64,000 nucleotides of DNA from an uncultured Candidatus Micrarchaeota archaeon (GCA_963760615.1 CAVXDX010000008.1:97459-161458); one strand, 5' to 3'. Counted from the stretch's first letter, positions 4,086-46,187 are shown. The notes: generated by a model from the sequence alone, not told the origin. Numbers and translations: made by a program.

Positions 4086-4125
4086 TTTAAATATTGAGAA
4101 TGAGCAATTTATGTGGTGATGTTTA
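4086..4125 (+). promoter_or_regulatory. second conserved promoter/5' block (TATA-N3-AAATGAGCAAATTT..GGTG.TG.TTATGG)
   Basis: GGTTTTAAATATTGAGAATGAGCAATTTATGTGGTGATGTTTACG here; GGTTTAAATACAGAAAATGAGCAAATTTAGATGGTGGTGTTTATGG at 5390-5435; weaker copy at 36346-36395. Confidence 0.55.
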
Positions 4126-5349: not shown

Positions 5350-5416
5350 ACGAGGATTTTTTCACTCTGCACATTTATTAATGTAAGGTTTAAATACAGA
5401 AAATGAGCAAATTTAG

Positions 5417-5989
5417 ATGGTGGTGTTTATGGAAAAAGTTAAAGTTGATGGCAAAAGCACCATGAAGCTTGTAGAATTCGACACTATCAAGGTTGCAAGA
5501 GAAAAGGTGCCCAGCCAAGTGCTTGATGTTACGATGGAAAAGAAGGGTGAGATAGTCAGGAGAGGCAAGCTTTTTTTTGATATCCCTTCTCGAACTGACA
5601 AGCTGCGCCTTGACCTTGATATAGGATCTGGATGGGAATCTAACCTGACTATACTTTTCAATGCAAAACTCGAGAAGGGAGTGGATACGCCACAGAAATC
5701 ACCGCCTACCCTTTTAGAAGTTAAAATTGCAAGCCAGATGCCTACGCTGAGTATGGCTAGAAAACTTTTGGAGGAAGAACCAACGAATGCGCCTAAGGTC
5801 CCTGTTGTGAAGCTGGAATTGGTGAATATAGCCGGCGTTGGAACACACTCCAAATACTTTGACCTTGAAATTGGGAAAATAAAAACAAAGCTCGAGGACG
5901 CCATGAATAATACTCCGGAAGGGCGGGAACTGGTAATGACATTTGAATCTAGGCGTTCCGAGCTAAAACGAGCTGGAATACTGCACTAA
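5417..5989 (+). CDS. hypothetical protein
   Basis: 190-aa ORF; N-terminus MVVFMEKVKV and upstream 45 nt closely match the gene at 4113. Confidence 0.5.
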   Translation: MVVFMEKVKVDGKSTMKLVEFDTIKVAREKVPSQVLDVTMEKKGEIVRRGKLFFDIPSRTDKLRLDLDIGSGWESNLTILFNAKLEKGVDTPQKSPPTLLEVKIASQMPTLSMARKLLEEEPTNAPKVPVVKLELVNIAGVGTHSKYFDLEIGKIKTKLEDAMNNTPEGRELVMTFESRRSELKRAGILH

Positions 5990-6299: not shown

Positions 6300-6329
6300 T
6301 TTCAGGAAGCTCCGGGTATTCCAGCAGGA

Positions 6330-7193
6330 CTACCTTCGGGATATTCCCAAGCTTGTCGATTGCTCTTTCTTCAGCATCTTCGAGTTGAAATGGTCGTAAA
6401 TCCTTATCACAGTGTCTGCTGCCGAAGCGACCACCTGTTCATACTCCTCCCTGCTTATCTCGCACTTTTCATCTACTCTGTGCGGAAGGTGGAACACGAA
6501 CCCTTCTAGGGCTACCTCGTAATGCTCATACAGCTCCTTGGCTATTGTCTTGTCGTCAGGATAGTCAAATCTTCGCAGAGATGCCCTAAGCTTGTCAATC
6601 CTTCTCAGAGGCTCGGCTCCAGGTGAACTCTGCCAAAGAGTTACATTAATGCCGGGTATTTTCAAATACTCCTCAAAGACTTCCTTTGAGTCTGCTTCGA
6701 CGTAAACAATTGGGTTGCTTTTCAGCTCGGTAGGCTTCGAGTTGCTGTAAACTAAATAAGGAGCATGTGTTGCTGGGCTGTAGTGTATGTCTACAATGAC
6801 GCTTGCACGCTCATCCCTTGCAGTTCCTAGCATTTCATTGTAAACTAGCAGATTATCGAAATTCTCCTTTTTGAAGAGCCTGTCCTGTTTCCTCATGCCG
6901 TAATCCTTTCCTGTTTTCATCCAGTGCAGGTCTATGACATCAGATGCATGCGTAAACGATTTCAGTTCGCAGACCTTTATGTCCCTCTCACCCTTGATTT
7001 TTTGAATTCGTTTCGCAACATCTTCCGTGAACTGCCTCTCAGGAGTGTGGGCGCCCCATGTCACGAGCATCGTTATGTATCTCCTTGCTTCCCCGACGTC
7101 CTGCGCGGCTTTCTCGAATTCTTTCTTATTCAGAATAGTCTTTATAGGTACGCTCCCCTCACCAGTCTCTGCGGTTTTGTGAATTCCATCCAT
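6330..7193 (-). CDS. hypothetical protein (cassette-promoter family member A)
   Basis: 287-aa ORF; start preceded by the conserved cassette CATGCCTGAATTATGCC...TATTTAAA. Confidence 0.5.
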   Translation of the reverse strand: MDGIHKTAETGEGSVPIKTILNKKEFEKAAQDVGEARRYITMLVTWGAHTPERQFTEDVAKRIQKIKGERDIKVCELKSFTHASDVIDLHWMKTGKDYGMRKQDRLFKKENFDNLLVYNEMLGTARDERASVIVDIHYSPATHAPYLVYSNSKPTELKSNPIVYVEADSKEVFEEYLKIPGINVTLWQSSPGAEPLRRIDKLRASLRRFDYPDDKTIAKELYEHYEVALEGFVFHLPHRVDEKCEISREEYEQVVASAADTVIRIYDHFNSKMLKKEQSTSLGISRR

Positions 7194-7268
7194 GCCTGAA
7201 TTATGCCTTTTCTTCTATTTAAACCCTAGAGAAGTCTATAAAGATTGTTATAAGGTAACTCCGGGAAC

Positions 7269-8279
7269 CTATCGCTCGACCAGCTCAACCCTCAAAAGTT
7301 TATTTTTTATGAACGAGTCCAAACGATCGGAAAGCTCACCTCCCAATCCGCTCGAGCTCATCCCAGACATTTTCAGCTCCTCTTGAAGCTTCCAATCTTC
7401 TAAATGCCCCCGCCCTCCATTTGCCCGGTCCAGCTCCACAATCAGCTTTTCTATCTCTCCCAGCCCTCCCTCCCTCTCGAATACTATTTCGTGCCATTTA
7501 GCTTCAAAAATTCTGGATGCTTCCTCAGGAGTTATAAAGCCCCTCTGGTCTATCCTATGCTCGATTTCAATAAACGCTTCCCCTATGATGGAAGGAAGCT
7601 TGCGTATTTCAGCATCAAATTCCGCCCTCTTCCCGCGTTCATACTTTATTCTTGTCATTTTCAGCGACTCCTTCTTCGGAGGTGATTCCAGCAAATGTAT
7701 GTCGGTCAGCTGCCCCAGGCTTATCCCCTGGTCCTCCAGATTCTTTACATTTGTGGAGATGGTATCCAGTCGGGTCTTGTTGACGAACTTTACTATATCC
7801 GCCATGGGGATCCGCGTCTCTTCCTTCAGCATGTTTATTATATCCCTTTCAACCTCATCAAGAAAACTGCTGAATTCCGCAGGCGCTTTTGTCAGGAGGC
7901 CCTGCCGGGCGTACTCCGCTGGGTTCCTCCCTCGCGTTTCCAGAGCCATTATGTTAGCCTCAAGGTTAATCGGGGTTGCCCCTAGGAGCGACAGCGAGGG
8001 AATGGAGCATATCTTGTGCCTATCAAAAATCTGCATATTCTTCTCAATCTTATCCATTGAAGCGTGCTTTAGAAGGTTGCTTATGCCCTCAACGGAAGCA
8101 CTCTCCACTCTGCTTTTTATTATCCGGATAGTCTCCCTGTCTCCCTTCGGGCGGCTGTCTGCTAAGGCCTTTGCATCACCCCAGCGCATGTAAAGGTCTC
8201 TCATCAGCCATTTTTCAAACTCCCCTCTGCTCATAAGCCTGGTATCCTTCCCTTCAGTTTTGACCTGCTCGGCGCACAT
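7269..8279 (-). CDS. hypothetical protein (cassette-promoter family member B)
   Basis: 336-aa ORF; cassette at 8280-8312; 14-bp palindrome at 8350-8363. Confidence 0.5.
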   Translation of the reverse strand: MCAEQVKTEGKDTRLMSRGEFEKWLMRDLYMRWGDAKALADSRPKGDRETIRIIKSRVESASVEGISNLLKHASMDKIEKNMQIFDRHKICSIPSLSLLGATPINLEANIMALETRGRNPAEYARQGLLTKAPAEFSSFLDEVERDIINMLKEETRIPMADIVKFVNKTRLDTISTNVKNLEDQGISLGQLTDIHLLESPPKKESLKMTRIKYERGKRAEFDAEIRKLPSIIGEAFIEIEHRIDQRGFITPEEASRIFEAKWHEIVFEREGGLGEIEKLIVELDRANGGRGHLEDWKLQEELKMSGMSSSGLGGELSDRLDSFIKNKLLRVELVER

Positions 8280-8349
8280 GGTTAGATTATGGCTTTTTCG
8301 ATATTTAAGCTTGTTCGATTAACACCGGCAAATCGTAACTTTCGGTTAT

Positions 8350-8363
8350 GTAACCATGGTTAC
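8350..8363. promoter_or_regulatory. perfect 14-bp palindrome GTAACCATGGTTAC upstream of ORF 7269..8279
   Basis: Exact palindrome; identical copy at 11628-11641. Confidence 0.6.
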
Positions 8364-8373
8364 ATCTAACCTC

Positions 8374-9426
8374 TCAACCCATCTTATCAGGAAGCTTCGG
8401 TGCCTTCCTTATCAGCTCGTCAATGTCGGTTATGCCTGTCTTAAACTTCTCCAGGCTTACCCCATACATCTTCACTTCCTTCTGGCCCACCACAACAAGA
8501 TTAGCCTCCTCTATTCCTAGAAACAAGCCCCTCGCTTTGCATCTCTTTTCAAAATCATCCAATCTCTCTTTACCAACTATTGCCTGCAATGTGTAATAAT
8601 CCCTGAAACCCTCGCTGTATCTCCTTGCCTTGCCTGCTTCGTCCCTCCATACGTCAAAATTCAAATATTTATCCTGAGGGTGATCATAGTCCCCCATCCC
8701 ATGTTTATGTTTATAAAATGCAGGGAGAGGAGTTGCTATTTTATCCATAAAACTTATAGCATAAAACGCCCTGACAAATGCATCCTTGCTGCTGAGCAAT
8801 TCAGTCTCGGCGAAAGTGGCTTTGCCTTCGCTGTACCTCTGCATAGCCCTCCGCAGCCTTTTTGCATCCTCACCCCCAGTACGGAATTTATGTAAATCCT
8901 CCCAAAAAAGAGCCAGCCTACGGGCACTTTCATCACGTATATGGTCCATCTCGTGCAATATTGCTCCAATCGACGAAATGGCGGATTCCTGCGCGTAATA
9001 CAGCACTCGGGTGCCGTCCTTCTCACGGCTTCCATGCCAATCTCCGTCATAAGATTTGAGTATTCTCAAACCTTGAGTTTCCATCCCATGATTTTTCTTT
9101 ACATACTCAAGTACCTGCATAAAGTGATCCCTTGACTGGATTGAGAGGGGCAAATTGTTCTCTTCAGCAAAGTGGTTATCAAGATACCGAACTAGCGGGC
9201 TGTTGCCTAACCGGAACATTCTGCCTGCCTTTATAGTCTCGCTGTATCTGTACGGATCCTTTATTTCCTTCAGCCTCTCTCTCGCCCAGTCTCCCATCCA
9301 CGCCTTTACTTCCTTTTGTTTCTCCAATGTGCCCAGCGCCTCATCAGCTATCTTCCAGCATTTTTCATAGAGTCCCTTGGCTTCTTCGCTTAAAACCAGC
9401 TCGCTTGACTTTGTAGCTGTTACCAT
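8374..9426 (-). CDS. HExxH zincin-like putative metallopeptidase (family member C)
   Basis: 350 aa; HEMDH followed 12 residues later by W, as in ORFs 10639..11589 and 45159..46139; cassette promoter. Confidence 0.5.
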   Translation of the reverse strand: MVTATKSSELVLSEEAKGLYEKCWKIADEALGTLEKQKEVKAWMGDWARERLKEIKDPYRYSETIKAGRMFRLGNSPLVRYLDNHFAEENNLPLSIQSRDHFMQVLEYVKKNHGMETQGLRILKSYDGDWHGSREKDGTRVLYYAQESAISSIGAILHEMDHIRDESARRLALFWEDLHKFRTGGEDAKRLRRAMQRYSEGKATFAETELLSSKDAFVRAFYAISFMDKIATPLPAFYKHKHGMGDYDHPQDKYLNFDVWRDEAGKARRYSEGFRDYYTLQAIVGKERLDDFEKRCKARGLFLGIEEANLVVVGQKEVKMYGVSLEKFKTGITDIDELIRKAPKLPDKMG

Positions 9427-9566
9427 GCCTAAATTATGCCTCTTTTGATATATTAAGATTACTTTGGAAGTTGGAATCTGAACTCAAAAGTAACTGCCCG
9501 CCCTTGGCATCCTGAACTGAAATGTTAATGCCCAGCTGTAGCTTTGAACTGAAATAGTCAAGAACC

Positions 9567-9701
9567 TTAATATACTCCTGAATAACAGACCACCTTTTTT
9601 ATCTTTCTAGTTCCAACCGTTCCGTCAGGAAGAATAAATGCCTTATATCTAGCCCTTCGCTTCTTTTCCCGCTTATAAATGCAACCTCTTGGAGCTTTCA
9701 T
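9567..9701 (-). CDS. small basic protein (44 aa)
   Basis: Not in the ORF track (under 60 aa); AGGTGGT Shine-Dalgarno 5 nt before ATG; MKAPRGCIYKREKKRRARYKAF...; co-directional downstream of the CxxCxxCC gene. Confidence 0.3.
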   Translation of the reverse strand: MKAPRGCIYKREKKRRARYKAFILPDGTVGTRKIKKVVCYSGVY

Positions 9702-9764
9702 TTATACCACCTCTATTTTTTAACTTCTTTTTTTGTTAATTCATCTTTTTGTTTCGTCATGATT

Positions 9765-10196
9765 TCACTCCCACAATTTTTTAATTACCTCATCAACAGT
9801 TATCGTTTCAAAAATTGGGCAGTCCTTTTTTTCAAAGTCTATTATCTTCTGTATCTTTTCCCTGTTCCATTTTTCTACTCCTCTGAATAAGTTATCTGGG
9901 CCGATAGCACAGAAATCAGGTCTTTCCTTATCCCAAACCGAGCAGTAATATTTTCCGTCTTTCATATATAGTTTAGCACACTCTTTTTTGAATGTTATCT
10001 GCTTCATGTCGAGTCCATCCCCAAATGTAAAAGGCGTGTCCTCTGTGATCTCTGTGATAATTGTATTATCGAGCATCCATCTAAACCTAAGTGCGGAGTC
10101 TAAAGTATCGTATAGAGTATATTCCTTGCAACACTTGGCACATCTTTGGCATATCTCCGAGTTTGCCAATTTGCTTTTGTTCCCGATTATTGTCAT
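9765..10196 (-). CDS. CxxCxxCC putative zinc/iron-chelating domain protein (YkgJ-like)
   Basis: 143 aa; CQRCAKCC motif plus additional Cys; start overlaps the TBP stop by 4 nt (ATGA). Confidence 0.55.
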   Translation of the reverse strand: MTIIGNKSKLANSEICQRCAKCCKEYTLYDTLDSALRFRWMLDNTIITEITEDTPFTFGDGLDMKQITFKKECAKLYMKDGKYYCSVWDKERPDFCAIGPDNLFRGVEKWNREKIQKIIDFEKKDCPIFETITVDEVIKKLWE

Positions 10197-10507
10197 CTGC
10201 TCACCTTCTTGGGGACTGGCAGAGGTTTTGTATGGGGAGCCAGTAGCTTTATCGCTCGCTCTAAGGCATACTTCACTTCTCTCTCATTCTTGCAGCCTGT
10301 GCATATTACCTTGCCGTTCTTGAAGAGCAGAAGAGATGCCTTTGGATCTTTGAACTTGAGTATTGCACCTGGGAACTGCTCTGGCTCATACTCCACATTC
10401 CTGATTTTGCTGGCAATAGTGTAAAGGTCAAGCTCCACTCCCAGATTGGCTGAAGCTACTATGTTCTCTATCTTGAACGATGGATCAATTGTAAGTTTCT
10501 TTGTCAA
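10193..10507 (-). CDS. single-repeat TATA-box-binding protein (one TBP domain only)
   Basis: 104 aa, TTG start; KIENIVASANLGVELDL...VEYEPEQFPGAI...DPKASLLLFKNGKVICTGCK is unmistakable TBP repeat sequence; no second repeat upstream or downstream. Confidence 0.7.
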   Translation of the reverse strand: MTKKLTIDPSFKIENIVASANLGVELDLYTIASKIRNVEYEPEQFPGAILKFKDPKASLLLFKNGKVICTGCKNEREVKYALERAIKLLAPHTKPLPVPKKVSR

Positions 10508-10638
10508 TGAAACACCTTCTCTGCCCCTTCCAGCCCATTTCTACTTAAAACCACCTGTTAGATGCCTCCCACCATACTCTCACTCATCAAATAGTTCTGT
10601 TCTGTAGTATATTAAGATTGCTTTGGCTTGAGAATAAG

Positions 10639-11589
10639 CTAAACCCTCCCTTCCTTCAGATCTCTCAGATACTCATCCGGATGATCTATGTGCCTCATGG
10701 TAAGAGGAGGATGTTTAATCGTGTATTTGATTGGGTTTTCCCCGGTTTTTTTCTCTATATACCCCAAGAACGCCATGCCCTTGGAATTTAGAGGTTGCTC
10801 CTCGTCCTCCTTAAGCAGTGTGGACTGTCTCATAGCCTTGTAGGAGTAACCAAATTTGCTTATAACCCGGTACCCGGCGTAGTATGCAATGCCCTCGTCG
10901 AAAGCTTGCCGGGCGTCAATCCCGTCTCTGACTATCTGCCATCTCGCCTCCATAGCTTCCTCATCCCCTGCTAGTTCAGAGTGGATTTTTACCTGCTCAC
11001 GTATGGAGTCTACAGACCAGTTCGCAACCTCAGGAATATTCTCCTTGATTGTTTGGTGCAGCTGCTCGTGGACAAAAGTGTTAAGGACAAGAAACCTCTC
11101 GATTCTCTTCCCTTCCTCGCTGTTTGGGCTGACTAGTTGCACTGCGCACTGCAGTCTAAACAGCTCTTCAATGTTGTCCCGCACAATATATGCGGTATTT
11201 TGCTCAGAGCTGAAAAAACCGGAAGTAGCTCTAAAAATGCTGGGCATATCGAAATCAACACCTTCCATTATCTCCCGTCTGAGCTCTTCGAGGAGAGTCT
11301 TATCGGACATGAACTTTTTGGATGTCGAGTAGAACTCTTCCTGCGTCATTTTCGTCGCTTCATCCCTGCTAATGAATTTTATGCTTATCTCGCCTTTTTT
11401 AAAACTCGTACTTACTTTCATCCCTGTTATGTCTTCGATACGTTTTGCAACTTGCATTATTTCGTATTTCGAAGGCACGTATAGCTCGGTTGGTGGAGAA
11501 GCAGATTCGCTATTAGTTTTATCTGCACCATGAAGTCTGATTATATGGTCCTTTATGTTCGTATCAGCTGATGGCTTAACAGTCCACAT
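10639..11589 (-). CDS. HExxH zincin-like putative metallopeptidase (family member D)
   Basis: 316 aa; HEQLH-x12-W and FDEGIAYYAGY (EGxAxY-like); cassette promoter at 11590-11622; palindrome at 11628-11641. Confidence 0.5.
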   Translation of the reverse strand: MWTVKPSADTNIKDHIIRLHGADKTNSESASPPTELYVPSKYEIMQVAKRIEDITGMKVSTSFKKGEISIKFISRDEATKMTQEEFYSTSKKFMSDKTLLEELRREIMEGVDFDMPSIFRATSGFFSSEQNTAYIVRDNIEELFRLQCAVQLVSPNSEEGKRIERFLVLNTFVHEQLHQTIKENIPEVANWSVDSIREQVKIHSELAGDEEAMEARWQIVRDGIDARQAFDEGIAYYAGYRVISKFGYSYKAMRQSTLLKEDEEQPLNSKGMAFLGYIEKKTGENPIKYTIKHPPLTMRHIDHPDEYLRDLKEGRV

Positions 11590-11622
11590 GCTGAGATTAT
11601 GCCTCTTTCAATATTTAAGCTT
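11590..11622 (-). promoter_or_regulatory. conserved promoter cassette (TATA + GGCATAATCTnRRC) directly preceding ATG
   Basis: Coding strand CTTAAATATTGAAAGAGGCATAATCTCAGC-ATG; near-identical at 7194-7232, 8280-8312, 9427-9462, 46140-46172; weaker at 13986-14020 and 30207-30243. Confidence 0.6.
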
Positions 11623-11627
11623 GCTTT

Positions 11628-11641
11628 GTAACCATGGTTAC
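11628..11641. promoter_or_regulatory. perfect 14-bp palindrome GTAACCATGGTTAC abutting the TATA box of ORF 10639..11589
   Basis: Exact palindrome 8 nt upstream of TATA (ATATTTAAG at 11611-11619). Confidence 0.6.
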
Positions 11642-11721
11642 ATTCTCCGCCAAATCTCATCTTCGCTTTGGTATTAGCCTGTTTCTCGGCAGATTTAAAT
11701 ATCAGAAATGGCGTAATTTAA

Positions 11722-12186
11722 GTGCTGAGATTTATGGTAACAACTGTGATGGATGAACCAAAAATGCGGGTAGAAATGCAAAGGAAATACTTTAAAGAAA
11801 AAGATTACAAAGTGGTAGAAGTTCCTAGAAGCAGGCTGGGTGAACTGTCCCACATATGGAGCCTGCTGCCAAGGATCGGGTATGACGAAGGCAAACCTCA
11901 GCCCAGTATGATTCCTGTCGGTTTTGTAAAAAAAGAAGACGAAAAATGGCATCTTTTGGGTGTAGTAAAGCATCAGGATGTATTGCATCATGTACCAGGA
12001 TCATCGGATTTGTTTGTAGAACCGCTAACAGGGAAATTAAGCATAACTCCAAAACCCCAAGACGATATAACACGAAATATGGTTGAGGTTCTTGTTGCAA
12101 GGCTTCCAGAGCCATTAAAAACCAAGCTGTATGAAGCAGCCCTAAAGCATGCGGATTTAGGCAGGGATATGTTCGTAAAGGATTAG
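11722..12186 (+). CDS. hypothetical protein
   Basis: 154-aa ORF. Confidence 0.4.
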   Translation: MLRFMVTTVMDEPKMRVEMQRKYFKEKDYKVVEVPRSRLGELSHIWSLLPRIGYDEGKPQPSMIPVGFVKKEDEKWHLLGVVKHQDVLHHVPGSSDLFVEPLTGKLSITPKPQDDITRNMVEVLVARLPEPLKTKLYEAALKHADLGRDMFVKD

Positions 12187-12198
12187 GACACCGCCAGA

Positions 12199-12756
12199 TT
12201 ACAGCTCTCCCTTCATCTTCTCAAGCAGAAAATCAAATCTAGTAAAGCCCGCTTCCTCGTTGATATGCCCCGCATTCTTCAGGATAATCAGTTCTGCTTT
12301 GAGGTTTTTTGCAAGATTTCTGCCCTGCTCAAGTGGTACATAGGGGTCGTTATCTGAGTTCATCACATAGAACTTTCCGCAGTTTCTCCTTATTTTATTC
12401 CAGTCGAACTGCTTTCCCACGAATGTTCCAATAAATTCATCAAACTCCGGGTTATCCAGAGGAGTTGTGAAACCTGCGACAAAAAAAGCCGCCTTAACAG
12501 GTTTATCCAGTCTTTCAATCACGCTAAGAAGGAATGCAACTCCCAGGCTGTGACCGACAACAATGGAGTTTTCCAGCTGAGGCTTATACTTTTCAAATGC
12601 ATCCAGCCAGTTCTGCAGCTTCGGGTCTTCGGGGTTGGGAAGCTGCGGGACAAGCACTCTGCAGCCCAGCTTCTTCAGCTCATTTTTAAGCCAAGGAAGC
12701 CAGTTCTCAGAGGGGCTTCCGCCAATGCCGTGTATAATGAAGACGTTAGTCATCAC
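12199..12756 (-). CDS. alpha/beta serine hydrolase (RBBP9/YdeN-like)
   Basis: 185 aa; IIHGIGGSP, GHSLG nucleophile elbow, late AGH catalytic His. Confidence 0.6.
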   Translation of the reverse strand: MMTNVFIIHGIGGSPSENWLPWLKNELKKLGCRVLVPQLPNPEDPKLQNWLDAFEKYKPQLENSIVVGHSLGVAFLLSVIERLDKPVKAAFFVAGFTTPLDNPEFDEFIGTFVGKQFDWNKIRRNCGKFYVMNSDNDPYVPLEQGRNLAKNLKAELIILKNAGHINEEAGFTRFDFLLEKMKGEL

Positions 12757-13769
12757 AAAACCTTGAAATCCACCACAACCTGCACAATTCCGGGAGCGAA
12801 AGGCCTCACTATCCTCTTCCCGATTATTTCCGCCTTTCTCCCGCTGAGCTTTGCTTCGCTTATGACAAGCCTCTCAGCATCCTCAAACGGGTTTTTCTCA
12901 GGGGCAAACTGGTATATGTGTATTACGCAGTTCTTCCTTGCCGCAAGGAAAGCTTCTGAAAGGAATTTCTCAGCCCCTTTTGGGAGAGGCATTAGAATCC
13001 TGTCCGCGGAATTCACAAATTTTTTCGGAATGATATCCTTAACATCTCCCAGTATGGGAGTTATCATCTCCTGCATCCTGTTCAGCCTTATGTTTTCTTG
13101 CATGTACTTGAATGCAACAGGATTCAGCTCTATTGCTTCAATTTTCACCCTCGGCTGCATTTTGGTAATCACTATGGGAAAGGGCCCCACTCCAGCAAAC
13201 ATTGCAAGGATTTTCTCTCCAGGCTTCACCTGTTCTGCAATTCTTTCCCTCTCGAAAGACAGCCTTGGGGTGAAGTAAACTTTCGCAACATCAAGCCGGA
13301 ACCTGCAGCCATTCTCCTTGTACTCCGCAACCGTCCTTTTCTCGCCTGCGAGGAACTTCAGCTTCCTTATCCTGTACACACCTTCCATGGGCCCGAGCTT
13401 CTTGTAGACTGATTTGACATTCCTGTGCACGCTGAGCAAAGAATCTGCAATGAGCTTCTCCTTTTTCTCAAGCTCCTTGGGAATTTCAACTATTGCAATA
13501 TCTCCGATAACATCGAAAGACTTCACTACCGAGTTGAGCTCTTCCGCTGTTAATTTACCTTTCAAGCTCTCCTCAAGCGAGAGGACTCGTGGGGCTCTTT
13601 TCTCAAGCTTCTTTTCAATGAGCTTGAAGCTCTTGAATCCGCCCTTCAGAGGGAAGTAAATTCCTGTTGGCTCAGCTTTGGGGGAATAACTGTTGTCAAG
13701 CAAGTTTAGCGAGATGAGCTCTTTTCTGACTCTCTCCGCGTCTTTTCTCTTAACGAGTATGCATTTCAT
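12753..13769 (-). CDS. trm5: tRNA (guanine37-N1)-methyltransferase Trm5 (Met-10+ family)
   Basis: 338 aa; DMFAGVGPF SAM-binding motif and overall Trm5/TYW2 architecture. Confidence 0.7.
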   Translation of the reverse strand: MKCILVKRKDAERVRKELISLNLLDNSYSPKAEPTGIYFPLKGGFKSFKLIEKKLEKRAPRVLSLEESLKGKLTAEELNSVVKSFDVIGDIAIVEIPKELEKKEKLIADSLLSVHRNVKSVYKKLGPMEGVYRIRKLKFLAGEKRTVAEYKENGCRFRLDVAKVYFTPRLSFERERIAEQVKPGEKILAMFAGVGPFPIVITKMQPRVKIEAIELNPVAFKYMQENIRLNRMQEMITPILGDVKDIIPKKFVNSADRILMPLPKGAEKFLSEAFLAARKNCVIHIYQFAPEKNPFEDAERLVISEAKLSGRKAEIIGKRIVRPFAPGIVQVVVDFKVL

Positions 13770-13826: not shown

Positions 13827-13985
13827 CTACTCAAGTTTTCCCCTAAGTTTCTTTGCGACTTTCTCAGCTGGTCCTGAGAGTGATATTTCCGACGCCTCTC
13901 TGTTTACACCAGGGGCATGTGTTACGAATTGTGGCTCCTCAACTATCTTCTGATGCCTTTTTAGTGTTCCTGACACGAGTATCAC
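13827..13985 (-). CDS. small hypothetical protein (52 aa, GTG start) carrying the cassette promoter
   Basis: GAATTATGCC...TACTATTTAAAAG cassette at 13986-14020 directly upstream; ORF under 60 aa so absent from the track. Confidence 0.3.
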   Translation of the reverse strand: MILVSGTLKRHQKIVEEPQFVTHAPGVNREASEISLSGPAEKVAKKLRGKLE

Positions 13986-14071
13986 CAGTTTGAATTATGC
14001 CGTTTATACTATTTAAAAGCACTGGATACCACACCGAAGAAAGCTTTAATATTCACAGGTAAAATTATGTT

Positions 14072-22502: not shown

Positions 22503-23836
22503 GTGACATGCTCCACCCCTAAAGGGTGTGGGCTTCCTGCTTCACAGACGTTGCTACTGCAACATCTCTCTCCTTTTGCAAGGAATTGCAGGCGTTACTT
22601 CCCCCTTGCCCAGGGGTAGCTCTCATGAGTATATTGCGTGCAGCATTCAAGTCTCTGTCTATTAACAAACCACAATTGGGGCAGGCATATATCCTGTCTC
22701 CGAGACTCAAGTCGTCCCTGATGTTTCCGCACCTGCTGCACATCTTTGAGGTATTTTCAGGGTCTACAAACACCACTCTGCATCCAGCTCCCTCCGCCTT
22801 GTATGCAAGCATGTTTGCAAACATACTCCATCCTGCATCATTGATGAACTTGCCGTAATGCTGCTCTGACATTTCTTTTGAGGCAAGTCTTTCTGATGCT
22901 ATGAAGGAATAATCATTCACCAAATCAGTTGTTGCCTTATGTAAGAAGTCTCTTCTTGTGTTGGCCACCTTCTCATGCAGTTTTGCTACTCTTACCTTTG
23001 CCTTCTTTCTGTTGCCGCTTCCTTTCTTTTTCTTCGAGAACTTTCTTTGTATGAAGGCAAGCCTATCCTCATGCTTCATGAGGTGTCTTGGGTTTTTTAT
23101 CATTTTGCCATTTGAGAGAGTTGCAAATGTCTTCAATCCCAGGTCTATACCTACTGCCTCTCCCCCGTTTTCTCGTGGAATCTTTCCAAGTGTCTCAACA
23201 GTGAAAATAGCAAACCATTTTCCTGAAGACTCTCTTTTCAGAGTCAGGGTTTTGATTCTGCCTTTTATCTCTCTGTGCTTATTTACTGCAATCTCACCAA
23301 AAGGAGTCACTGTGAGTTTCTTATCCAGAGAGAAGCCAGACCCATACTGCGGATAGTACAAGCTCTTCATCCTGTCAATTGATTTGAAGCGAGGGAAACC
23401 ACATTCCACTCCTTTTCTTCTCAGCTTGAAAACTCTCGTTACTGAATTATAAACTCTATGTGCAATCTCCTGCTGGGTTTGGGAATAGAGACCACACTCT
23501 TTTACCATCAGCTGTAGCGTATTCTTAGTTGGGAAGTAGCCAAAGTCTTTGTAGGTTTGTTTGCAGTGCTCCAGAAGCTCATTCCACATGTTCTTTGCTA
23601 TCCAAATATGCTGAAACATCTCCTTCTCCTGCTTCTTTGAGGGATATATCCTGAATTTGTAGGCTCTCATAGACGTTATTTATGTCTATTTTTCCCTTTA
23701 TAAACCTCTGGGAGGGGTAACTTTCCAGTGAAAGTTATATATACTGGAAGAGCTAAATTTTCCCTTATGGTTCGCTTTCATCCCACCCTTAAAAGGTGTG
23801 GGATTTCCCGCTCACGTTGTTAAATAATAGAATGTA
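22503..23836 (-). mobile_element. IS200/IS605-family TnpB-only insertion sequence (IS1341-like, non-autonomous)
   Basis: tnpB ORF flanked by two similar ~40-nt hairpin segments in the same orientation (22511-22553 and 23772-23815); TTAC on the tnpB strand next to the left end (~23833); no tnpA. Confidence 0.6.
22519..23670 (-). CDS. tnpB: TnpB (IS605 OrfB) RNA-guided endonuclease
   Basis: 383 aa; MRAYKFRIYP N-terminus, RuvC-like blocks, C-terminal CSRCG...CPNCG zinc finger. Confidence 0.85.
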   Translation of the reverse strand: MRAYKFRIYPSKKQEKEMFQHIWIAKNMWNELLEHCKQTYKDFGYFPTKNTLQLMVKECGLYSQTQQEIAHRVYNSVTRVFKLRRKGVECGFPRFKSIDRMKSLYYPQYGSGFSLDKKLTVTPFGEIAVNKHREIKGRIKTLTLKRESSGKWFAIFTVETLGKIPRENGGEAVGIDLGLKTFATLSNGKMIKNPRHLMKHEDRLAFIQRKFSKKKKGSGNRKKAKVRVAKLHEKVANTRRDFLHKATTDLVNDYSFIASERLASKEMSEQHYGKFINDAGWSMFANMLAYKAEGAGCRVVFVDPENTSKMCSRCGNIRDDLSLGDRIYACPNCGLLIDRDLNAARNILMRATPGQGGSNACNSLQKERDVAVATSVKQEAHTL

Positions 23837-27329: not shown

Positions 27330-27345
27330 TGCAACCACGAAAGAG

Positions 27346-27435
27346 CGGGCCCGGCGGGATTTGAACCCGCGACTCCCTGGTTTCCTCATGCGAGTTTAAA
27401 AGCCAGGTACTCTGGCCAAGCTGAGTTACGGGCCC
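27346..27435 (-). tRNA. tRNA-Lys (anticodon TTT) with 15-nt canonical intron
   Basis: Acceptor GGGCCCG/CGGGCCC, anticodon stem CCTGG/CCAGG, loop CTTTTA|A interrupted after position 37 by AACTCGCATGAGGAA, T-arm GCGGG-TTCAAAT-CCCGC. Confidence 0.75.
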
Positions 27436-29174: not shown

Positions 29175-30206
29175 CTAAGACTTGCATGAGCATAGCACCG
29201 CGTATGTCTTTCTAAGGTTTTCCAGATGCGTAGTCTGTTCTCTAACTTCCCATTGCTTCTCTGCAAGATCTTCTGATAAATTACTTCCCAACGCTGTGTT
29301 GATGCATGACCGCATCTGAATCCTTAGCTTCTCAGCCTCAGCAACCTTATTTTTAACCTCCGCATCTTTATCGGAAATTGCCTTCTCAATAAATTTCTTA
29401 ACCTTCTCAAGGTCAATTCCAGCTATGGCAAACGCAATGGCATCCGGGTTTGCAGGCGCGTGGTTGGACCAGATGAACAGCAGATTGTCAAAGTGACTTT
29501 CAGTGTGTTCCCTAGTGATTCCTGCTAAAAAGCGAGCCTCTTCCTTTAGGTTGTGATTATTGAGCTGGGAGAGCAGCAGGCTTGGACTTTTTGACTCGCT
29601 GAGAACTTTTTTGACTGCTTCCTGCGGTGTTGAACCCTCCTTTTCAAGAGTTTTGACCCTCAACGCCAGCTCGTATCTTTTTTTGGTGTCGCTGGCATAA
29701 GCTTCATCGCCAAATCTCGCCTTTGTGAAGGAATATTTTATGTTCTGGCTTTCGAGGAAATCAAGCAGCGAAACTAAGTTCTGGTATGCCCCCTGCTTTC
29801 TGAGCCTGTCCAGAGCATCCGGTTTGAGGAAGCTTGCCCTGCTAGAGGTATTTAGTCTGTTGAATGCTCCGTTTACCGAAAGTTTGTAGAAAAGACCGCT
29901 CACCAGATGAATTGCTGCAGACCCTCCGGACTCATCGCCAAAACCAGTTATTTCAGCGTAAACCCCTTCGCTGAGGGTTACGGCCTTCACTGCCCTGAAG
30001 CCAAAAACCCGTACATGAGTATCACCAACGCTGAACTTCGTATCAATCTCCCTCGTATTCATCCTACGGAAGTACTCGGAAAGCTTGCTCTGCAGGTCTT
30101 TTATTGCATGATGGTGGAATGCGTCCCTTGCAGGCACATCTTTCGGAGTAGTTTCTTTAACGTCCACTGGGCTCTTAGCAAATTCTGGAATGTGCTTTTG
30201 TGGCAT
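29175..30206 (-). CDS. hypothetical protein
   Basis: 343-aa ORF; 5' flank TTTTAATCTTAGATGCCATAATTATTAC-ATG resembles the cassette promoter. Confidence 0.4.
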   Translation of the reverse strand: MPQKHIPEFAKSPVDVKETTPKDVPARDAFHHHAIKDLQSKLSEYFRRMNTREIDTKFSVGDTHVRVFGFRAVKAVTLSEGVYAEITGFGDESGGSAAIHLVSGLFYKLSVNGAFNRLNTSSRASFLKPDALDRLRKQGAYQNLVSLLDFLESQNIKYSFTKARFGDEAYASDTKKRYELALRVKTLEKEGSTPQEAVKKVLSESKSPSLLLSQLNNHNLKEEARFLAGITREHTESHFDNLLFIWSNHAPANPDAIAFAIAGIDLEKVKKFIEKAISDKDAEVKNKVAEAEKLRIQMRSCINTALGSNLSEDLAEKQWEVREQTTHLENLRKTYAVLCSCKS

Positions 30207-30379
30207 GTAATAATTATGGCATCTAAGATTAAAATAGGTTTACTTGCGCTAAGCTAGTATGTTTTTCGGAAAGTTACCCCTCCCTCAGGTATTTAAATAG
30301 GGTAAAGCAAGAAGTCAGCAAAAGATATTTATGCACTACTGTATAAAATAGCAATACTCTTTTTAAGAGGATGAGGTGA

Positions 30380-45051: not shown

Positions 45052-45158
45052 AACATCCCTCCCGAGGATATTTCAGAATTCGTCTTTATAAATCTCCCCA
45101 TGATGGTTCTTTATCCCCTCCCAGTTCTTTGTCAAGTAGATGACAACATGCTTTATGG

Positions 45159-46139
45159 CTAAAATTTGAGATCTAACTGCATCGTTATACCCGCTAGTCT
45201 CTGCATTATATCCTTATCAGGAAGCATGAGGTATTTTTTTAGGATTTCATCCCTCTGTTCTGGTGAGACCTTGTCATACAAAGAAGGCAGTTGCTTAATC
45301 AATTTTACCTGCTCCTCCTCTAGTGCTGGAACCTTAAAATCAGGGTTCAGTCTTCCATATTCCCAGAGCAGCAGCTTAAAGGCGTCAGCTCTGTACAGTG
45401 TATACTCCTGCTTCTCGTACTTAGTTTTTTTACTTATATGTTCTATATTCCGTATAGATTCCTCCCTGCCTGAGGCATTCGGATCGTATAAAAAGTCTCC
45501 GAATAATGGTAGGAGTTCCCAGTCCATAGCTTCGCCAATTCTATCCCTGAATCTATGAATCAGTTCATGGCGCAAGGAAGCACGGAAGGCACGCGAAACT
45601 TCCTGATAGTTCCCAGACTCAAAACTTAGGGCAAGGCTGACAAAGTCGCCGCCGCCTCCATAGTCAAGCGGAATGGATATTATCGGTAAGGCTTCTCTTT
45701 CACTCTCATATTCAAGCCCAAAGGCTGGAGGTTGACGCCGATCGCCAATGCTACGTATTCTTATTAGGAAAACCTCCTCGTTATAACCGGCAATTTTTGA
45801 CAGCTCATCTACTGCTACATTTAGCTGATAAACTACTGCTTTTAAAAGTTTAATATCAAGAGGCTTCGAATATTCCACCCTAAAATATCTTCCGTTTATT
45901 TCAAAATCAAGATTGCGGTTCAAAATCTCGTAGGTCAGTTCATCTTTTGTGGATTCAACTCTAGAAGTCGGAGGCACATCTTTGAACTTTTCCTTTGCTT
46001 CGTTTAGGGAAAGCTGCTTGACCTTGCCTGCGATTTCTTCCAAAAGGAGCCTGGCTATTGCCTGCTGAGGCGATTCCTTGGCTAACGGAAATTTAATATC
46101 TTGTTGCTCTTTCCTCTCCGCTACCTTCTCTCCATTCAT
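45159..46139 (-). CDS. HExxH zincin-like putative metallopeptidase (family member E)
   Basis: 326 aa; HELIH-x11-W; cassette promoter CATGCTTAGATTATGCC...TTATTTAAATA at 46140-46172. Confidence 0.5.
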   Translation of the reverse strand: MNGEKVAERKEQQDIKFPLAKESPQQAIARLLLEEIAGKVKQLSLNEAKEKFKDVPPTSRVESTKDELTYEILNRNLDFEINGRYFRVEYSKPLDIKLLKAVVYQLNVAVDELSKIAGYNEEVFLIRIRSIGDRRQPPAFGLEYESEREALPIISIPLDYGGGGDFVSLALSFESGNYQEVSRAFRASLRHELIHRFRDRIGEAMDWELLPLFGDFLYDPNASGREESIRNIEHISKKTKYEKQEYTLYRADAFKLLLWEYGRLNPDFKVPALEEEQVKLIKQLPSLYDKVSPEQRDEILKKYLMLPDKDIMQRLAGITMQLDLKF

Positions 46140-46187
46140 GCTTAGATTATGCCTTTTGCTTTATTTAAATAGTGAAGTTTACCGGTA

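What the first reader, a model, noticed from the sequence alone, without database searches (positions are those of the whole stretch)
6330..11641. Conserved ~35-bp promoter cassette in front of at least five unrelated, leaderless genes
ORFs starting at 7193, 8279, 9426, 11589 and 46139 (all on the minus strand) share nearly the same sequence ending exactly at the ATG. The coding-strand consensus is CTTAAATAT-N7-RRGGCATAATCT-N-RRC-ATG, seen on the plus strand as CATGCNNARATTATGCC...ATATTTAAG. Weaker copies precede ORF 29175..30206 and a 52-aa ORF at 13985. A decayed copy with no ORF lies at 45128-45158. The downstream proteins are not obviously alike, and conservation covers the TATA-to-start spacer, so this exceeds generic promoter similarity. 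It implies a co-regulated set or repeated mobilisation of a promoter module.
Basis: seen in the sequence. Interest (0 to 1): 0.7.

Follow-up and report, generated by a model that had tools for sequence, protein, structure and literature searches.

The report
Stereotyped leaderless promoter in Micrarchaeota
A nearly identical 36-base promoter that ends exactly at the ATG sits in front of five unrelated genes here. In close relatives (uncultivated Micrarchaeota archaea) the same promoter precedes dozens more unrelated genes, marking shuffled arrays of clade-specific genes rather than housekeeping genes.

Summary
Five minus-strand genes (ATG at 7193, 8279, 9426, 11589, 46139) carry the same block from -33 to +3: gcAggc-TTAAATAT-nAAAARA-GGCATAATYTARGC-ATG. 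It matches the consensus at 27-31 of 35 positions; no other site in the window exceeds 23. A related 23-nt pattern gave 8 hits against 0.17 expected.

The geometry is that of an archaeal core promoter for a leaderless mRNA: TATA centred at -25.5, an A/T-rich proximal element at -12..-4, and C(-1)/A(+1) at the ATG.

It is not the generic promoter. Housekeeping genes and tRNAs in the window lack it.

In 596 Gb of reference genomes a strict pattern hit only two Candidatus Micrarchaeota MAGs. JGI metagenome contigs and loci fetched by protein homology gave about 30 more copies, in front of roughly 17 unrelated protein families. These often sit in tandem arrays whose gene order differs between genomes.

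Orthologues with only 26-55% amino-acid identity keep -14..+3 at 17/17, so the block is under selection.

Best reading: a clade-specific, stereotyped core promoter plus initiator for accessory genes. A dedicated regulator is not excluded. Transcription starts and co-expression are inferred, not measured. The claimed 'decayed copy' at 45128-45158 is a different element.

The parts
7191..7226 (-). Class I promoter cassette (-33..+3) of ORF 6330-7193
   Evidence: 28/35 to consensus, core 13/14. TTTAAATA-N8-GGCATAATTCAGGC-ATG.
8277..8312 (-). Class I promoter cassette of ORF 7269-8279. Most deviant core: GCCATAATCTAACC.
   Evidence: 31/35 to consensus, core 10/14. The upstream region back to the palindrome is about 85% conserved with L012, where the part after the TATA box is the class II form.
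9424..9459 (-). Class I promoter cassette of ORF 8374-9426. The TATA box is the variant CTTAATATAT.
   Evidence: 28/35 to consensus, core 14/14. The orthologue in L012 keeps -14..+3 at 17/17 at about 26% amino-acid identity.
11587..11622 (-). Class I promoter cassette of ORF 10639-11589
   Evidence: 31/35 to consensus, core 11/14. Exact GGCATAATCT.
46137..46172 (-). Class I promoter cassette of ORF 45159-46139
   Evidence: 27/35 to consensus, core 12/14. Exact GGCATAATCT.
11690..11724 (+). Diverged cassette (ATTTAAATAtcagaaatGGCGTAATTTAA-GTG) before ORF 11722-12186, divergent from the 11589 promoter
   Evidence: 23/35, PWM 21 bits. In the identical Logan contig L001 the gene caller starts this gene 4 codons further in (150 aa).
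13983..14020 (-). Diverged cassette (TTTTAAATAgtataaacGGCATAATTCAAAC-TG-GTG) before the 52-aa ORF 13827-13985
   Evidence: 22/35, PWM 14.5 bits. No Pfam hit for the 52-aa product. No Rfam family here.
30204..30239 (-). Weak relative of the cassette (ttttaatcttagatGCCATAATTATTAC-ATG) before ORF 29175-30206
   Evidence: Below the class I threshold.
6330..7193 (-). Cassette-driven gene g6330 (287 aa), clade-restricted, tentatively an amidase_3 / zinc-carboxypeptidase-like hydrolase
7269..8279 (-). Cassette-driven gene g7269 (336 aa) with a central winged helix-turn-helix
   Evidence: HTH_24, E 3.5e-4, below the gathering score. Weak Lrp/ChrS-type HTH hits. Homologues in L011, L013, L014.
8374..9426 (-). 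Cassette-driven gene g8374 (350 aa) with an HExxH motif
   Evidence: No family hit. Homologous to the N-terminal half of the 690-aa ORF of L012.
10639..11589 (-). Cassette-driven gene g10639 (316 aa), predicted gluzincin-type zinc metallopeptidase
45159..46139 (-). Cassette-driven gene g45159 (326 aa) with an invariant HELIH motif
   Evidence: Only 6 proteins (one the window's own) in 5.8 billion. Invariant H191-E192-L-I-H195 and E208. No PDB sequence hit.
8348..8365 (.). 18-bp perfect palindrome ATGTAACCATGGTTACAT, 8 nt after the stop of g8374 and about 45 nt upstream of the g7269 TATA box
11626..11643 (.). Second copy of the palindrome (1 mismatch), abutting the BRE side of the 11589 cassette

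Best explanation
The block is a clade-specific, highly stereotyped archaeal core promoter fused to its initiator and start codon. I call it 'class I'.

Inferred mechanism:
- TBP and TFB bind the A-rich BRE and the TATA box at -34..-22.
- The GC step at -14..-12 and the A/T-rich CATAATYTA at -12..-4 form an unusually sequence-constrained promoter-proximal, initially melted region.
- RNA polymerase starts at the A that follows the invariant C(-1). That A is the A of the ATG.
- The mRNA therefore begins with 5'-AUG and is translated without a Shine-Dalgarno sequence.

Each gene of a set of clade-restricted accessory genes has its own copy. These genes are mostly Pfam-dark: predicted zinc hydrolases, GNATs, methyltransferases, a nucleotidyltransferase, AbrB-like and wHTH proteins. 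They often lie in tandem arrays whose order differs between genomes. The set would thus be driven by the same, probably strong, promoter and expressed alike.

I think the block is read mainly by the basal machinery rather than by a dedicated repressor. Three observations point that way: a second stereotyped form exists, intermediates exist, and a ribosomal-protein promoter uses the same GGCATAAT element.

Shown: the sequence, its geometry, its restriction to a subset of genes and to one clade, and purifying selection on -14..+3.
Inferred: the transcription start, the strength, and the co-expression.
For: Geometry:
- TTAAATA sits at -29..-23, CATAAT at -12..-7, C at -1, then ATG. This holds in 22 copies and in 18 copies that were not selected by my search pattern.
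- This matches the published archaeal layout: TATA about -27, BRE about -33, A/T-rich PPE about -10, pyrimidine at -1, ATG in leaderless mRNAs (PMC5316973).
- Conservation stops sharply at +3 and fades upstream of -34.

A distinct class:
- The core GGCATAATTTAGGC matches at 10/14 or better in cassette copies and at 8/14 or worse in every other TATA-at-minus-29 promoter. The background frequency of 10/14 or better is 0.0003.

Not generic:
- Housekeeping genes and tRNAs lack it.
- The 23 genes of locus L028 have one diverged copy only.

Clade-specific:
- A strict pattern hit only 5 sites in 596 Gb, all in two Micrarchaeota MAGs.
- There were 11 metagenome contigs and 0 viral contigs.
- It is absent from more distant relatives, including before a g45159 homologue.

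Selection:
- Orthologues at 55% and about 26% amino-acid identity keep -14..+3 at 17/17, while -60..-31 is about 47% identical.

Unbiased confirmation:
- Orthologues of g6330 fetched by protein lie in arrays where 3-5 of 6-9 genes each have a class I copy.

Acts at promoter level:
- 22 of 24 exact GGCATAAT sites are TATA-linked, and 20 are followed by ATG at +14.
- In L005 the L1 ribosomal-protein operon has TATA-N8-GGCATAATC followed by a Shine-Dalgarno leader.

Common scaffold:
- A second stereotyped form, TATA-AAAA-TGAGCAAWTTTA-N3-GGTGRTG (about 15 copies), and a hybrid at L029 8948 were found.
Against: - No transcription start or expression data exist, so 'leaderless', 'strong' and 'co-expressed' are inferences.
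- Invariance of every position from -14 to +3 is more than basal promoter elements usually show. In other archaea the PPE is only A/T-rich. That degree of invariance is what a sequence-specific DNA-binding factor would produce.
- The genes that carry the block are orphans rather than the expected highly expressed housekeeping genes.
- About half of the copies used for the logo were retrieved with a pattern that fixed part of the motif. This bias is removed, but with only 18 copies.
Confidence: 0.62

Rival explanations
1. The -14..+3 block is the operator of a dedicated, clade-specific transcription factor. This could be a repressor sitting over the start site, or an alternative initiation factor such as the single-repeat TBP paralogue or a TFB variant. 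The genes would then form a true regulon switched on or off together.
For: - The distribution is presence/absence (bimodal scores).
- There is 17/17 identity across diverged orthologues.
- The footprint size is about 17 bp.
- The block contains a direct repeat, GGCAT-N6-GGCAT, one helical turn apart.
- One cassette gene encodes a wHTH protein.
- A conserved single-repeat TBP gene lies inside the window cluster.
- Conserved palindromes lie just upstream of several cassettes.
Against: - The block has no dyad symmetry, unlike most archaeal HTH operators.
- Graded intermediates exist (11722, 13985, 30206, L002 2027, L003 1082).
- GGCATAAT occurs in a ribosomal-protein promoter.
- A hybrid with the class II form exists.
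- The single-repeat TBP family is wider than the cassette: L018 and L019 have it but show no cassette in 11 and 20 kb.
Confidence: 0.22
2. The similarity is mainly historical. A promoter module has been copied repeatedly in front of new genes ('promoter propagation'), by recombination within the arrays, without special constraint on the spacer.
For: - The downstream genes are unrelated.
- Arrays share gene families but in different orders.
- Upstream-flank subtypes are shared by unrelated genes: CAAAGCAAGC-TTAAATAT and CTCTTGAAG-TTTAAATA.
- The orthologous g7269 locus carries class I in the window and class II in L012.
Against: - The block is kept at 17/17 in orthologues whose coding DNA is only 49-68% identical, which needs selection and not just recent copying.
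- Local alignments between window copies are at most 37 nt, so there is no longer shared flank that would betray copy-paste.
- No terminal repeats were seen.
- The shared spacer and flank strings are low-complexity and could match by chance.
Confidence: 0.1
3. It is simply the generic promoter/initiator consensus of this genome, seen in its best-matching examples.
For: - Many other genes in the window are also leaderless-type, with a TATA box 28-31 nt before the start and A/T-rich sequence at -10.
- The tRNA-Asn promoter has CCTAATCTTAGC at the right place.
- The L1 operon has GGCATAATC.
Against: - Only 5 of 65 window ORFs of at least 90 aa from a simple longest-ORF filter carry it.
- There is a clear score gap (27-31 against 23 or less).
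- Housekeeping genes and four of five tRNAs do not resemble it.
- The strict pattern occurs only 4 times in the reference MAG Sv174.
Confidence: 0.04
4. It is part of a mobile element (MITE/IS end), a site-specific recombination site of a gene-cassette system, or an RNA-level element (5' UTR or conserved N-terminal coding sequence).
For: - It is a repeated short sequence at gene boundaries in shuffled arrays.
- An IS605-type TnpB is present in the window.
Against: - It always has a fixed orientation and fixed distance to an ATG.
- Conservation ends at +3, so nothing coding is conserved.
- No inverted-repeat partner or integrase is nearby.
- There were no Rfam hits and no viral contig hits.
- With the TATA box 22-29 nt upstream, most of the block cannot be transcribed.
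Confidence: 0.02

Closest known systems
Archaeal core promoter of leaderless mRNAs (BRE - TATA - promoter-proximal element - initiator), as mapped in Thermococcus, Sulfolobus and Haloferax
   Same: Same order and spacing of elements: an 8-bp A/T TATA box about 26 nt before the start, purines upstream of it, an A/T-rich stretch around -10, pyrimidine(-1)/purine(+1), and ATG at the 5' end with no Shine-Dalgarno sequence (PMC5316973).
   Different: In the known cases the PPE and initiator are weak, degenerate preferences. Here 17 consecutive positions (-14..+3) are essentially fixed, and only in a subset of genes. That subset is made of clade-specific accessory genes, and the sequence is confined to a narrow Micrarchaeota clade.
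Putative mobile promoters / 'promoter propagation in prokaryotes' (Matus-Garcia et al. 2012, PMC3488235)
   Same: Highly similar upstream sequence in front of non-homologous coding sequences within a genome and between related genomes.
   Different: That class is defined by alignments of at least 50 nt at 80% identity or more. Here the shared part is 36 nt and the longest local alignment is 37 nt. No link to IS elements or riboswitches was found. Orthologue comparison indicates maintenance by selection rather than recent movement.
Archaeal regulon operators overlapping the core promoter, for example the Thermococcales glycolytic motif bound by TrmB-family regulators (recalled from general knowledge, not checked here)
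   Same: A fixed sequence at a fixed place relative to the TATA box, in front of functionally diverse genes, defining a co-regulated set.
   Different: Those operators are dyad-symmetric and their regulator is known. This block has no dyad symmetry, includes the start codon, and has no identified binding protein.
Stereotyped promoters of compact genomes, for example the AAAATTGA early-promoter motif of mimivirus (recalled from general knowledge, not checked here)
   Same: One nearly invariant promoter string reused in front of many unrelated genes of one genome.
   Different: That is a different domain of life and a different transcription machinery. Here the motif is longer and is tied to leaderless translation.

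Membership tests
Archaeal BRE/TATA/PPE/INR core promoter | 8-bp A/T-rich TATA box centred about 26-27 nt upstream of the transcription start | tested here: met
   TTAAATAT occupies -29..-22 relative to the A of ATG (centre -25.5) in all copies. This is relative to the inferred start, not a measured one.
Archaeal BRE/TATA/PPE/INR core promoter | Purine-rich BRE directly upstream of the TATA box | tested here: inconclusive
   A/G is preferred at -34/-33 (information 1.0-1.2 bits). The rest of -40..-30 is weakly conserved and splits into subtypes (AAGCAAGC, CTTGAAG).
Archaeal BRE/TATA/PPE/INR core promoter | [quoted passage not shown] | tested here: met
   CATAATYTA at -12..-4, with 1.7-2.0 bits at -12..-7.
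Archaeal BRE/TATA/PPE/INR core promoter | Initiator: pyrimidine at -1, purine at +1 | tested here: met
   C at -1 in 17 of 18 unbiased copies (one has T) and A at +1 in all 18.
Archaeal BRE/TATA/PPE/INR core promoter | Experimentally mapped transcription start at the predicted position | not testable with these tools
   No RNA data for this uncultivated organism are available here.
Leaderless mRNA | Start codon (usually ATG) at or within a few nt of the 5' end; no Shine-Dalgarno sequence | tested here: met
   ATG lies exactly 14 nt after the G of GGCATAAT in 20 of 22 TATA-linked copies. The 14 nt before the ATG contain no GGTG/GGAGG. The actual 5' end is inferred.
Putative mobile promoters (PMC3488235) | Upstream regions align over at least 50 nt at 80% identity or more | tested here: not met
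   The longest local alignment between window copies is 37 nt (86%). The criterion was read.
Putative mobile promoters (PMC3488235) | Downstream coding sequences are not homologous | tested here: met
   No BLASTP hit with E below 0.1 among the five window proteins. The copies precede roughly 17 unrelated protein families (clustering extended to the arrays). hhalign between the HExxH families was not significant.
Transcription-factor operator / regulon | Dyad-symmetric or otherwise factor-specific site with a cognate DNA-binding protein | tested here: not met
   GGCATAATTTAGGC is not a palindrome; it contains only a direct repeat GGCAT-N6-GGCAT. A cognate factor cannot be tested here.
Transcription-factor operator / regulon | Present at a defined subset of promoters and absent from the rest | tested here: met
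   The score distribution is bimodal, although a few intermediates exist.
MITE / IS end / recombination site | Terminal inverted repeats or target duplications, with occurrence independent of gene starts | tested here: not met
   Conservation ends at about -34 and at +3 with no inverted partner. All copies lie in one orientation at a fixed distance from an ATG.

The most novel reading that the evidence does not exclude
The invariant -14..+3 block is the recognition site of a clade-specific initiation or regulatory factor. Candidates are the conserved single-repeat TBP paralogue encoded inside the window cluster, a TFB variant, or the wHTH protein g7269. Under this reading, this Micrarchaeota clade runs a separate transcription programme, comparable to an alternative sigma-factor regulon, for a shuffling island of orphan hydrolases and modifying enzymes. 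These enzymes may be used in its dependence on a host archaeon.
Probability: 0.15. Interest if true: 0.8.

Novelty: new variant of a known kind. Interest (0 to 1): 0.5.

Why it matters
Nothing is known about promoters in Micrarchaeota, an uncultivated, small-genome DPANN lineage; a full-text search found no paper on the subject.

Practical value:
- A 36-bp string that pins the start codon improves gene-start annotation in these MAGs. For example, the L030 gene called at 5835 should probably start 5 codons earlier.
- It flags the clade's accessory-gene arrays.
- It offers a candidate strong promoter for future genetic tools.

Conceptual value:
- It shows an archaeal promoter whose melted region and initiator are as constrained as a protein-binding site.
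- It also shows orphan genes each equipped with the same promoter. Both bear on how new genes acquire expression and on whether archaea have promoter classes beyond BRE/TATA.

Tried and rejected
- Rfam at gathering threshold found only five tRNAs and nothing at the cassettes or at the 13985 locus.
- A viral-contig scan gave 0 hits, so there is no evidence of a virus or provirus origin.
- PADLOC and NCBIfam gave nothing usable for the cassette-driven proteins. PDB sequence searches gave nothing.
- I tested whether the HExxH proteins g8374, g10639, g45159 and L012_4592 are one diverged family. hhalign probabilities were below 3%, so I treat them as unrelated families that share only the zinc motif.
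- I tested whether L008 is a syntenic 'slot' in which a different gene replaced g45159. tblastx found no flanking synteny; the shared flanks are just the cassette and a repeated 3' hairpin element. Rejected.
- The apparent co-variation of the two GGCAT half-sites (GCCAT...ACCAT at 8279) rests on a single case and was not pursued.
- Identical spacers in unrelated genes (window 7193 and L006 3602) are low-complexity and compatible with chance.
- The 690-aa ORF in L012 is a fusion of g8374-like and g10639-like halves. I first read it as evidence that the window genes are a split gene. However, 18 of the 19 other representatives of the g10639 family are single-domain length or shorter (179-337 aa) and only this one is a fusion, so the fusion is the derived state.
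- The sigma-70 promoter scan tool was not used because it is not applicable to archaea.

Full report

Reading 6300-11700 and the upstream regions of all long ORFs confirms the report. The minus-strand ORFs whose ATG lies at 7193, 8279, 9426, 11589 and 46139 are each preceded by almost the same sequence, and it ends exactly at the ATG.
- A 23-nt degenerate pattern covering the TATA box and spacer gives 8 hits in the window against 0.17 expected from shuffles.
- Against a 35-position consensus the five copies score 27-31. No other position on either strand exceeds 23, and the random tail ends at 20-22.
- A PWM separates them at 45-51 bits from two diverged copies (21 and 14.5 bits) and from a shuffled maximum of 7 bits. 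The five copies helped train that PWM.
- The 10-mer GGCATAATCT alone is not significant.
- The five proteins show no pairwise similarity. None has a Pfam family except a sub-threshold winged helix-turn-helix in the 7269-8279 product.

**2. What organism, and how widespread is the motif?**

A strict version of the motif (TTAAATA-N6-RRGGCATAATYY-N-RRC-ATG) occurs only five times in 596 Gb of species-representative genomes. All five are in two MAGs labelled Candidatus Micrarchaeota, Sv174 and Sv368. The window's own genome is not in that collection.
- The same kind of pattern finds 11 JGI metagenome contigs and no IMG/VR viral contig.
- The best protein relatives of window genes are also from Micrarchaeota.
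- More distant relatives show no copy. These were reached through homologues of the single-repeat TBP (L018, L019) and of g45159 (L022, L024). The g45159 homologue at 34% identity has none in front of it either.

The motif is therefore specific to a narrow clade.

**3. Anatomy.**

I aligned 22 copies on the ATG. Because part of that set was retrieved with a pattern that fixes some letters, I also aligned 18 copies that were not selected by the pattern. Both give the same picture: gcAggc-TTAAATAT-nAAAARA-GG-CATAAT-YTARG-C-ATG.
- Information is high at -29..-23 (TATA box), at -18..-15 (A-rich), at -12..-7 (CATAAT), at -1 (C) and at the ATG.
- It drops to nothing at +4 and is weak upstream of -34.
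- This is the published archaeal layout: TATA box about 27 nt and BRE about 33 nt before the start, an A/T-rich proximal element at -10, a pyrimidine at -1, and ATG at the 5' end of leaderless mRNAs (PMC5316973, read).
- With the TATA box centred at -25.5 from the A of the ATG, the predicted start is that A. The transcripts would therefore have no leader, and there is no Shine-Dalgarno sequence.

This step is inference from geometry. No RNA data exist.

**4. Is it just the generic promoter?**

No, although it shares features with other promoters of the clade.
- Many window genes have a TATA box 28-31 nt before their start codon, so leaderless architecture is common here.
- The 14-nt core GGCATAATTTAGGC matches at 10-14 positions in cassette copies and at 8 or fewer in every other promoter of that geometry. 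The background frequency of 10 or more matches is 0.0003.
- OMP decarboxylase, ScpA, ScpB, MCM, LeuRS, the homocysteine-biosynthesis enzyme, FKBP and the five tRNA genes do not carry it. Only tRNA-Asn has a partial resemblance.
- On a 20.8-kb locus (L028) cut from a related 98.7-kb contig, with TFB, superoxide dismutase, AlaRS and ABC transporters, only the orthologue of g6330 has a copy, and it is diverged at 9/14.
- The reference MAG Sv174 has only four strict matches.

On the other side:
- Exact GGCATAAT occurs 24 times in 144 kb of clade DNA. Of these, 22 are TATA-linked, and one lies in the promoter of the L1-L10-L12 ribosomal-protein operon, followed by a Shine-Dalgarno leader.
- A second stereotyped promoter is also present: TATA-AAAA-TGAGCAAWTTTA-N3-GGTGRTG-N3-ATG, about 15 copies, including window 4086-4116 and 5389-5420.
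- Intermediates and a hybrid link the two forms (L002 2027, L003 1082, L029 8948).

The clade thus seems to have an unusually sequence-specific proximal element, and the cassette is its most complete, leaderless form.

**5. Selection or recent copying?**
- Two orthologous pairs were compared. The AbrB/MazE-like gene of L007 and L013 is 55% identical in protein and 68% in coding DNA. g8374 and its L012 counterpart are about 26% identical in protein.
- In both pairs -14..+3 is identical at 17 of 17 positions, -30..-15 is 63-81% identical, and -60..-31 is about 47% identical. That requires purifying selection on the block.
- Local alignments between the window copies never exceed 37 nt. No longer shared flank betrays copy-and-paste, and the formal criterion for 'putative mobile promoters' (at least 50 nt at 80%; PMC3488235) is not met.
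- Copying is not excluded. Upstream-flank subtypes (CAAAGCAAGC- and CTCTTGAAG-) are shared by unrelated genes. The orthologous g7269 locus has the class I form in the window and the class II form in L012, downstream of an otherwise 85%-conserved upstream region.

**6. Which genes carry it?**
- Across the window and related loci I found about 26 copies in pattern-retrieved DNA, in front of roughly 17 unrelated protein families (clustering extended to the arrays).
- Those with a recognisable domain are an AbrB/MazE-like repeat protein, a carbon-nitrogen-hydrolase-like protein, SAM methyltransferases, a Pol-beta nucleotidyltransferase and GNAT acetyltransferases. The rest are Pfam-dark.
- The window genes are extremely restricted. 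g45159 and g6330 each return only 6 proteins, the window's own included, among 5.8 billion. g10639 returns 20 cluster representatives, the query included, among 1.84 billion.
- g8374 and g45159 also have HExxH but are not detectably related to g10639.

**7. An unbiased test.**

Loci fetched through g6330 orthologues were chosen without reference to the motif. They turned out to be tandem, same-strand arrays of 280-500-aa genes.
- Most of these genes have their own class I copy: L029 at 4813, 8963 and 10001; L030 at 920, 2117, 3261 and 6378, plus 5835 with a one-base insertion; L031 at 1489, 5051 and 6185, plus 3875 with a one-base insertion.
- The arrays draw on a shared pool of families, but the order differs between genomes.
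- The window cluster 6330-11589 is one such array: four cassette genes in a row. It is interrupted by an operon for a single-repeat TBP and a CxxCxxCC protein, which has a different, long-leader promoter.

**8. Mechanism and alternatives.**

The best-supported reading is a specialised core promoter plus initiator.
- It starts transcription at the ATG of each gene of an accessory, clade-specific set and gives them a common, probably high, expression.
- Because the same proximal element appears in a ribosomal-protein promoter, and because a graded series and a second stereotyped form exist, I favour recognition by the basal machinery (TFB/RNA polymerase in the melted region).
- The main rival is a dedicated factor binding -14..+3. 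The invariance, the roughly 17-bp size and the GGCAT-N6-GGCAT direct repeat fit that. The lack of dyad symmetry, the intermediates and the ribosomal-protein case argue against it.
- A purely historical 'mobile promoter' explanation is weakened by the orthologue comparison.
- The generic-promoter explanation is contradicted by the counts.
- A transposon, recombination-site or RNA-level explanation is contradicted by the fixed orientation, the sharp end of conservation at +3 and the position of the TATA box.

**9. Verdict.**

The thing is a new variant of a known kind: an archaeal leaderless core promoter with an exceptionally constrained proximal and initiator region, restricted to a subset of genes and to one Micrarchaeota clade. 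It is of moderate interest now. It would be of high interest if a dedicated initiation factor were shown to read it.

Noticed in passing
window 10193-10507 (-), with 9765-10196 (-) downstream: A 104-aa protein consisting of a single TBP repeat (Pfam TBP, E 4e-30) instead of the usual two. It is co-oriented with, and overlaps by 4 nt, a CxxCxxCC zinc/iron-chelating protein gene. Single-repeat TBPs of about 100-120 aa form a conserved family in Micrarchaeota metagenomes (e.g. P0024, P0029, P0067, P0069), alongside canonical 175-182-aa TBPs that are 64-73% identical to it. The roughly 55-nt leader of the gene is nearly identical in L018. In a more distant relative (L019-L021) the gene lies next to the L21e/Rpo4 operon.
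   Followed up: partly
window 8348-8365 and 11626-11643; L003 3348 and 4156; L005 7743; L012 2324, 3178, 5433: An 18-bp perfect palindrome, ATGTAACCATGGTTACAT: 8 non-redundant copies with at most 2 mismatches in about 190 kb (a ninth hit, in L001, duplicates window 11626). All are intergenic or at gene 3' ends. Several lie about 8 nt after the stop of HExxH genes and/or 10-75 nt upstream of a class I TATA box. It could be a binding site for a dimeric factor or a 3'-end hairpin.
   Followed up: partly
L004 3327 and 3912; L006 5948; L017 2019: A second inverted repeat, GGAACC-N4-GGTTCC, followed in three of the four copies by TCTTGA(A/G)G-type sequence. In L006 and L017 it lies directly upstream of a class I TATA box; in L004 3327 it lies upstream of another TATA box. 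Its half-site (AACC...GGTT) resembles that of the 18-bp palindrome.
   Followed up: no
window 4086-4116 (+) and 5389-5420 (+); also L004 2552, L006 7769, L012 3250/4099/10118, L018 6766, L030 4663, L031 2837: A second stereotyped promoter ('class II'): TTTAAATA-N3-4-AAAA-TGAGCAAWTTTA-N2-3-GGTGRTG-TTT-ATG. This is a short leader with a Shine-Dalgarno-like GGTGAT. About 15 copies precede unrelated genes. A hybrid with the class I initiator occurs at L029 8948.
   Followed up: partly
window 45128-45180 (-) and L008 3207-3257: A conserved intergenic element, CTCAAATTTTAGCC...TTGTCA-N6-TGACAA (a 6-bp stem hairpin), downstream of two unrelated cassette genes.
   Followed up: partly
L012 244-2316: A 690-aa ORF that fuses a g8374-like N-terminal half to a g10639-like C-terminal half, each with its own HExxH. 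In the window these are separate genes in the opposite order, each with its own cassette. Only 1 of the 20 g10639-family representatives is such a fusion.
   Followed up: partly
L011 3986 (-) and L014 2449 (-): The cassette ATG opens only a 15-codon ORF. The g7269-like reading frame starts 23 nt downstream, in another frame. This may be a frameshift or assembly error, or a real upstream mini-ORF.
   Followed up: no
window 30380-33982 (+): An MCM helicase gene interrupted by an intein with a LAGLIDADG homing-endonuclease domain (1200 aa in total).
   Followed up: no
window 22519-23670 (-); L005 6439-6575: An IS605-family OrfB/TnpB (Cas12f-like TNB domain). About 120 nt at its 3' end is 85-90% identical at the translated level to a segment in Sv174 locus L005, suggesting a shared mobile element.
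   Followed up: no
window 27345-27435 (-): A tRNA that ARAGORN reports with an undefined two-base anticodon; Rfam scores it at 56.9 bits. It is 91 nt long and may contain an intron.
   Followed up: no
window 13827-13985 (-): A 52-aa ORF with no family match, behind a diverged cassette in which the ATG position reads TGG/GTG. The Trm5 gene that follows (12753-13769) has its only TATA-like sequence just 15 nt before its ATG, so the two may be co-transcribed from the cassette.
   Followed up: no
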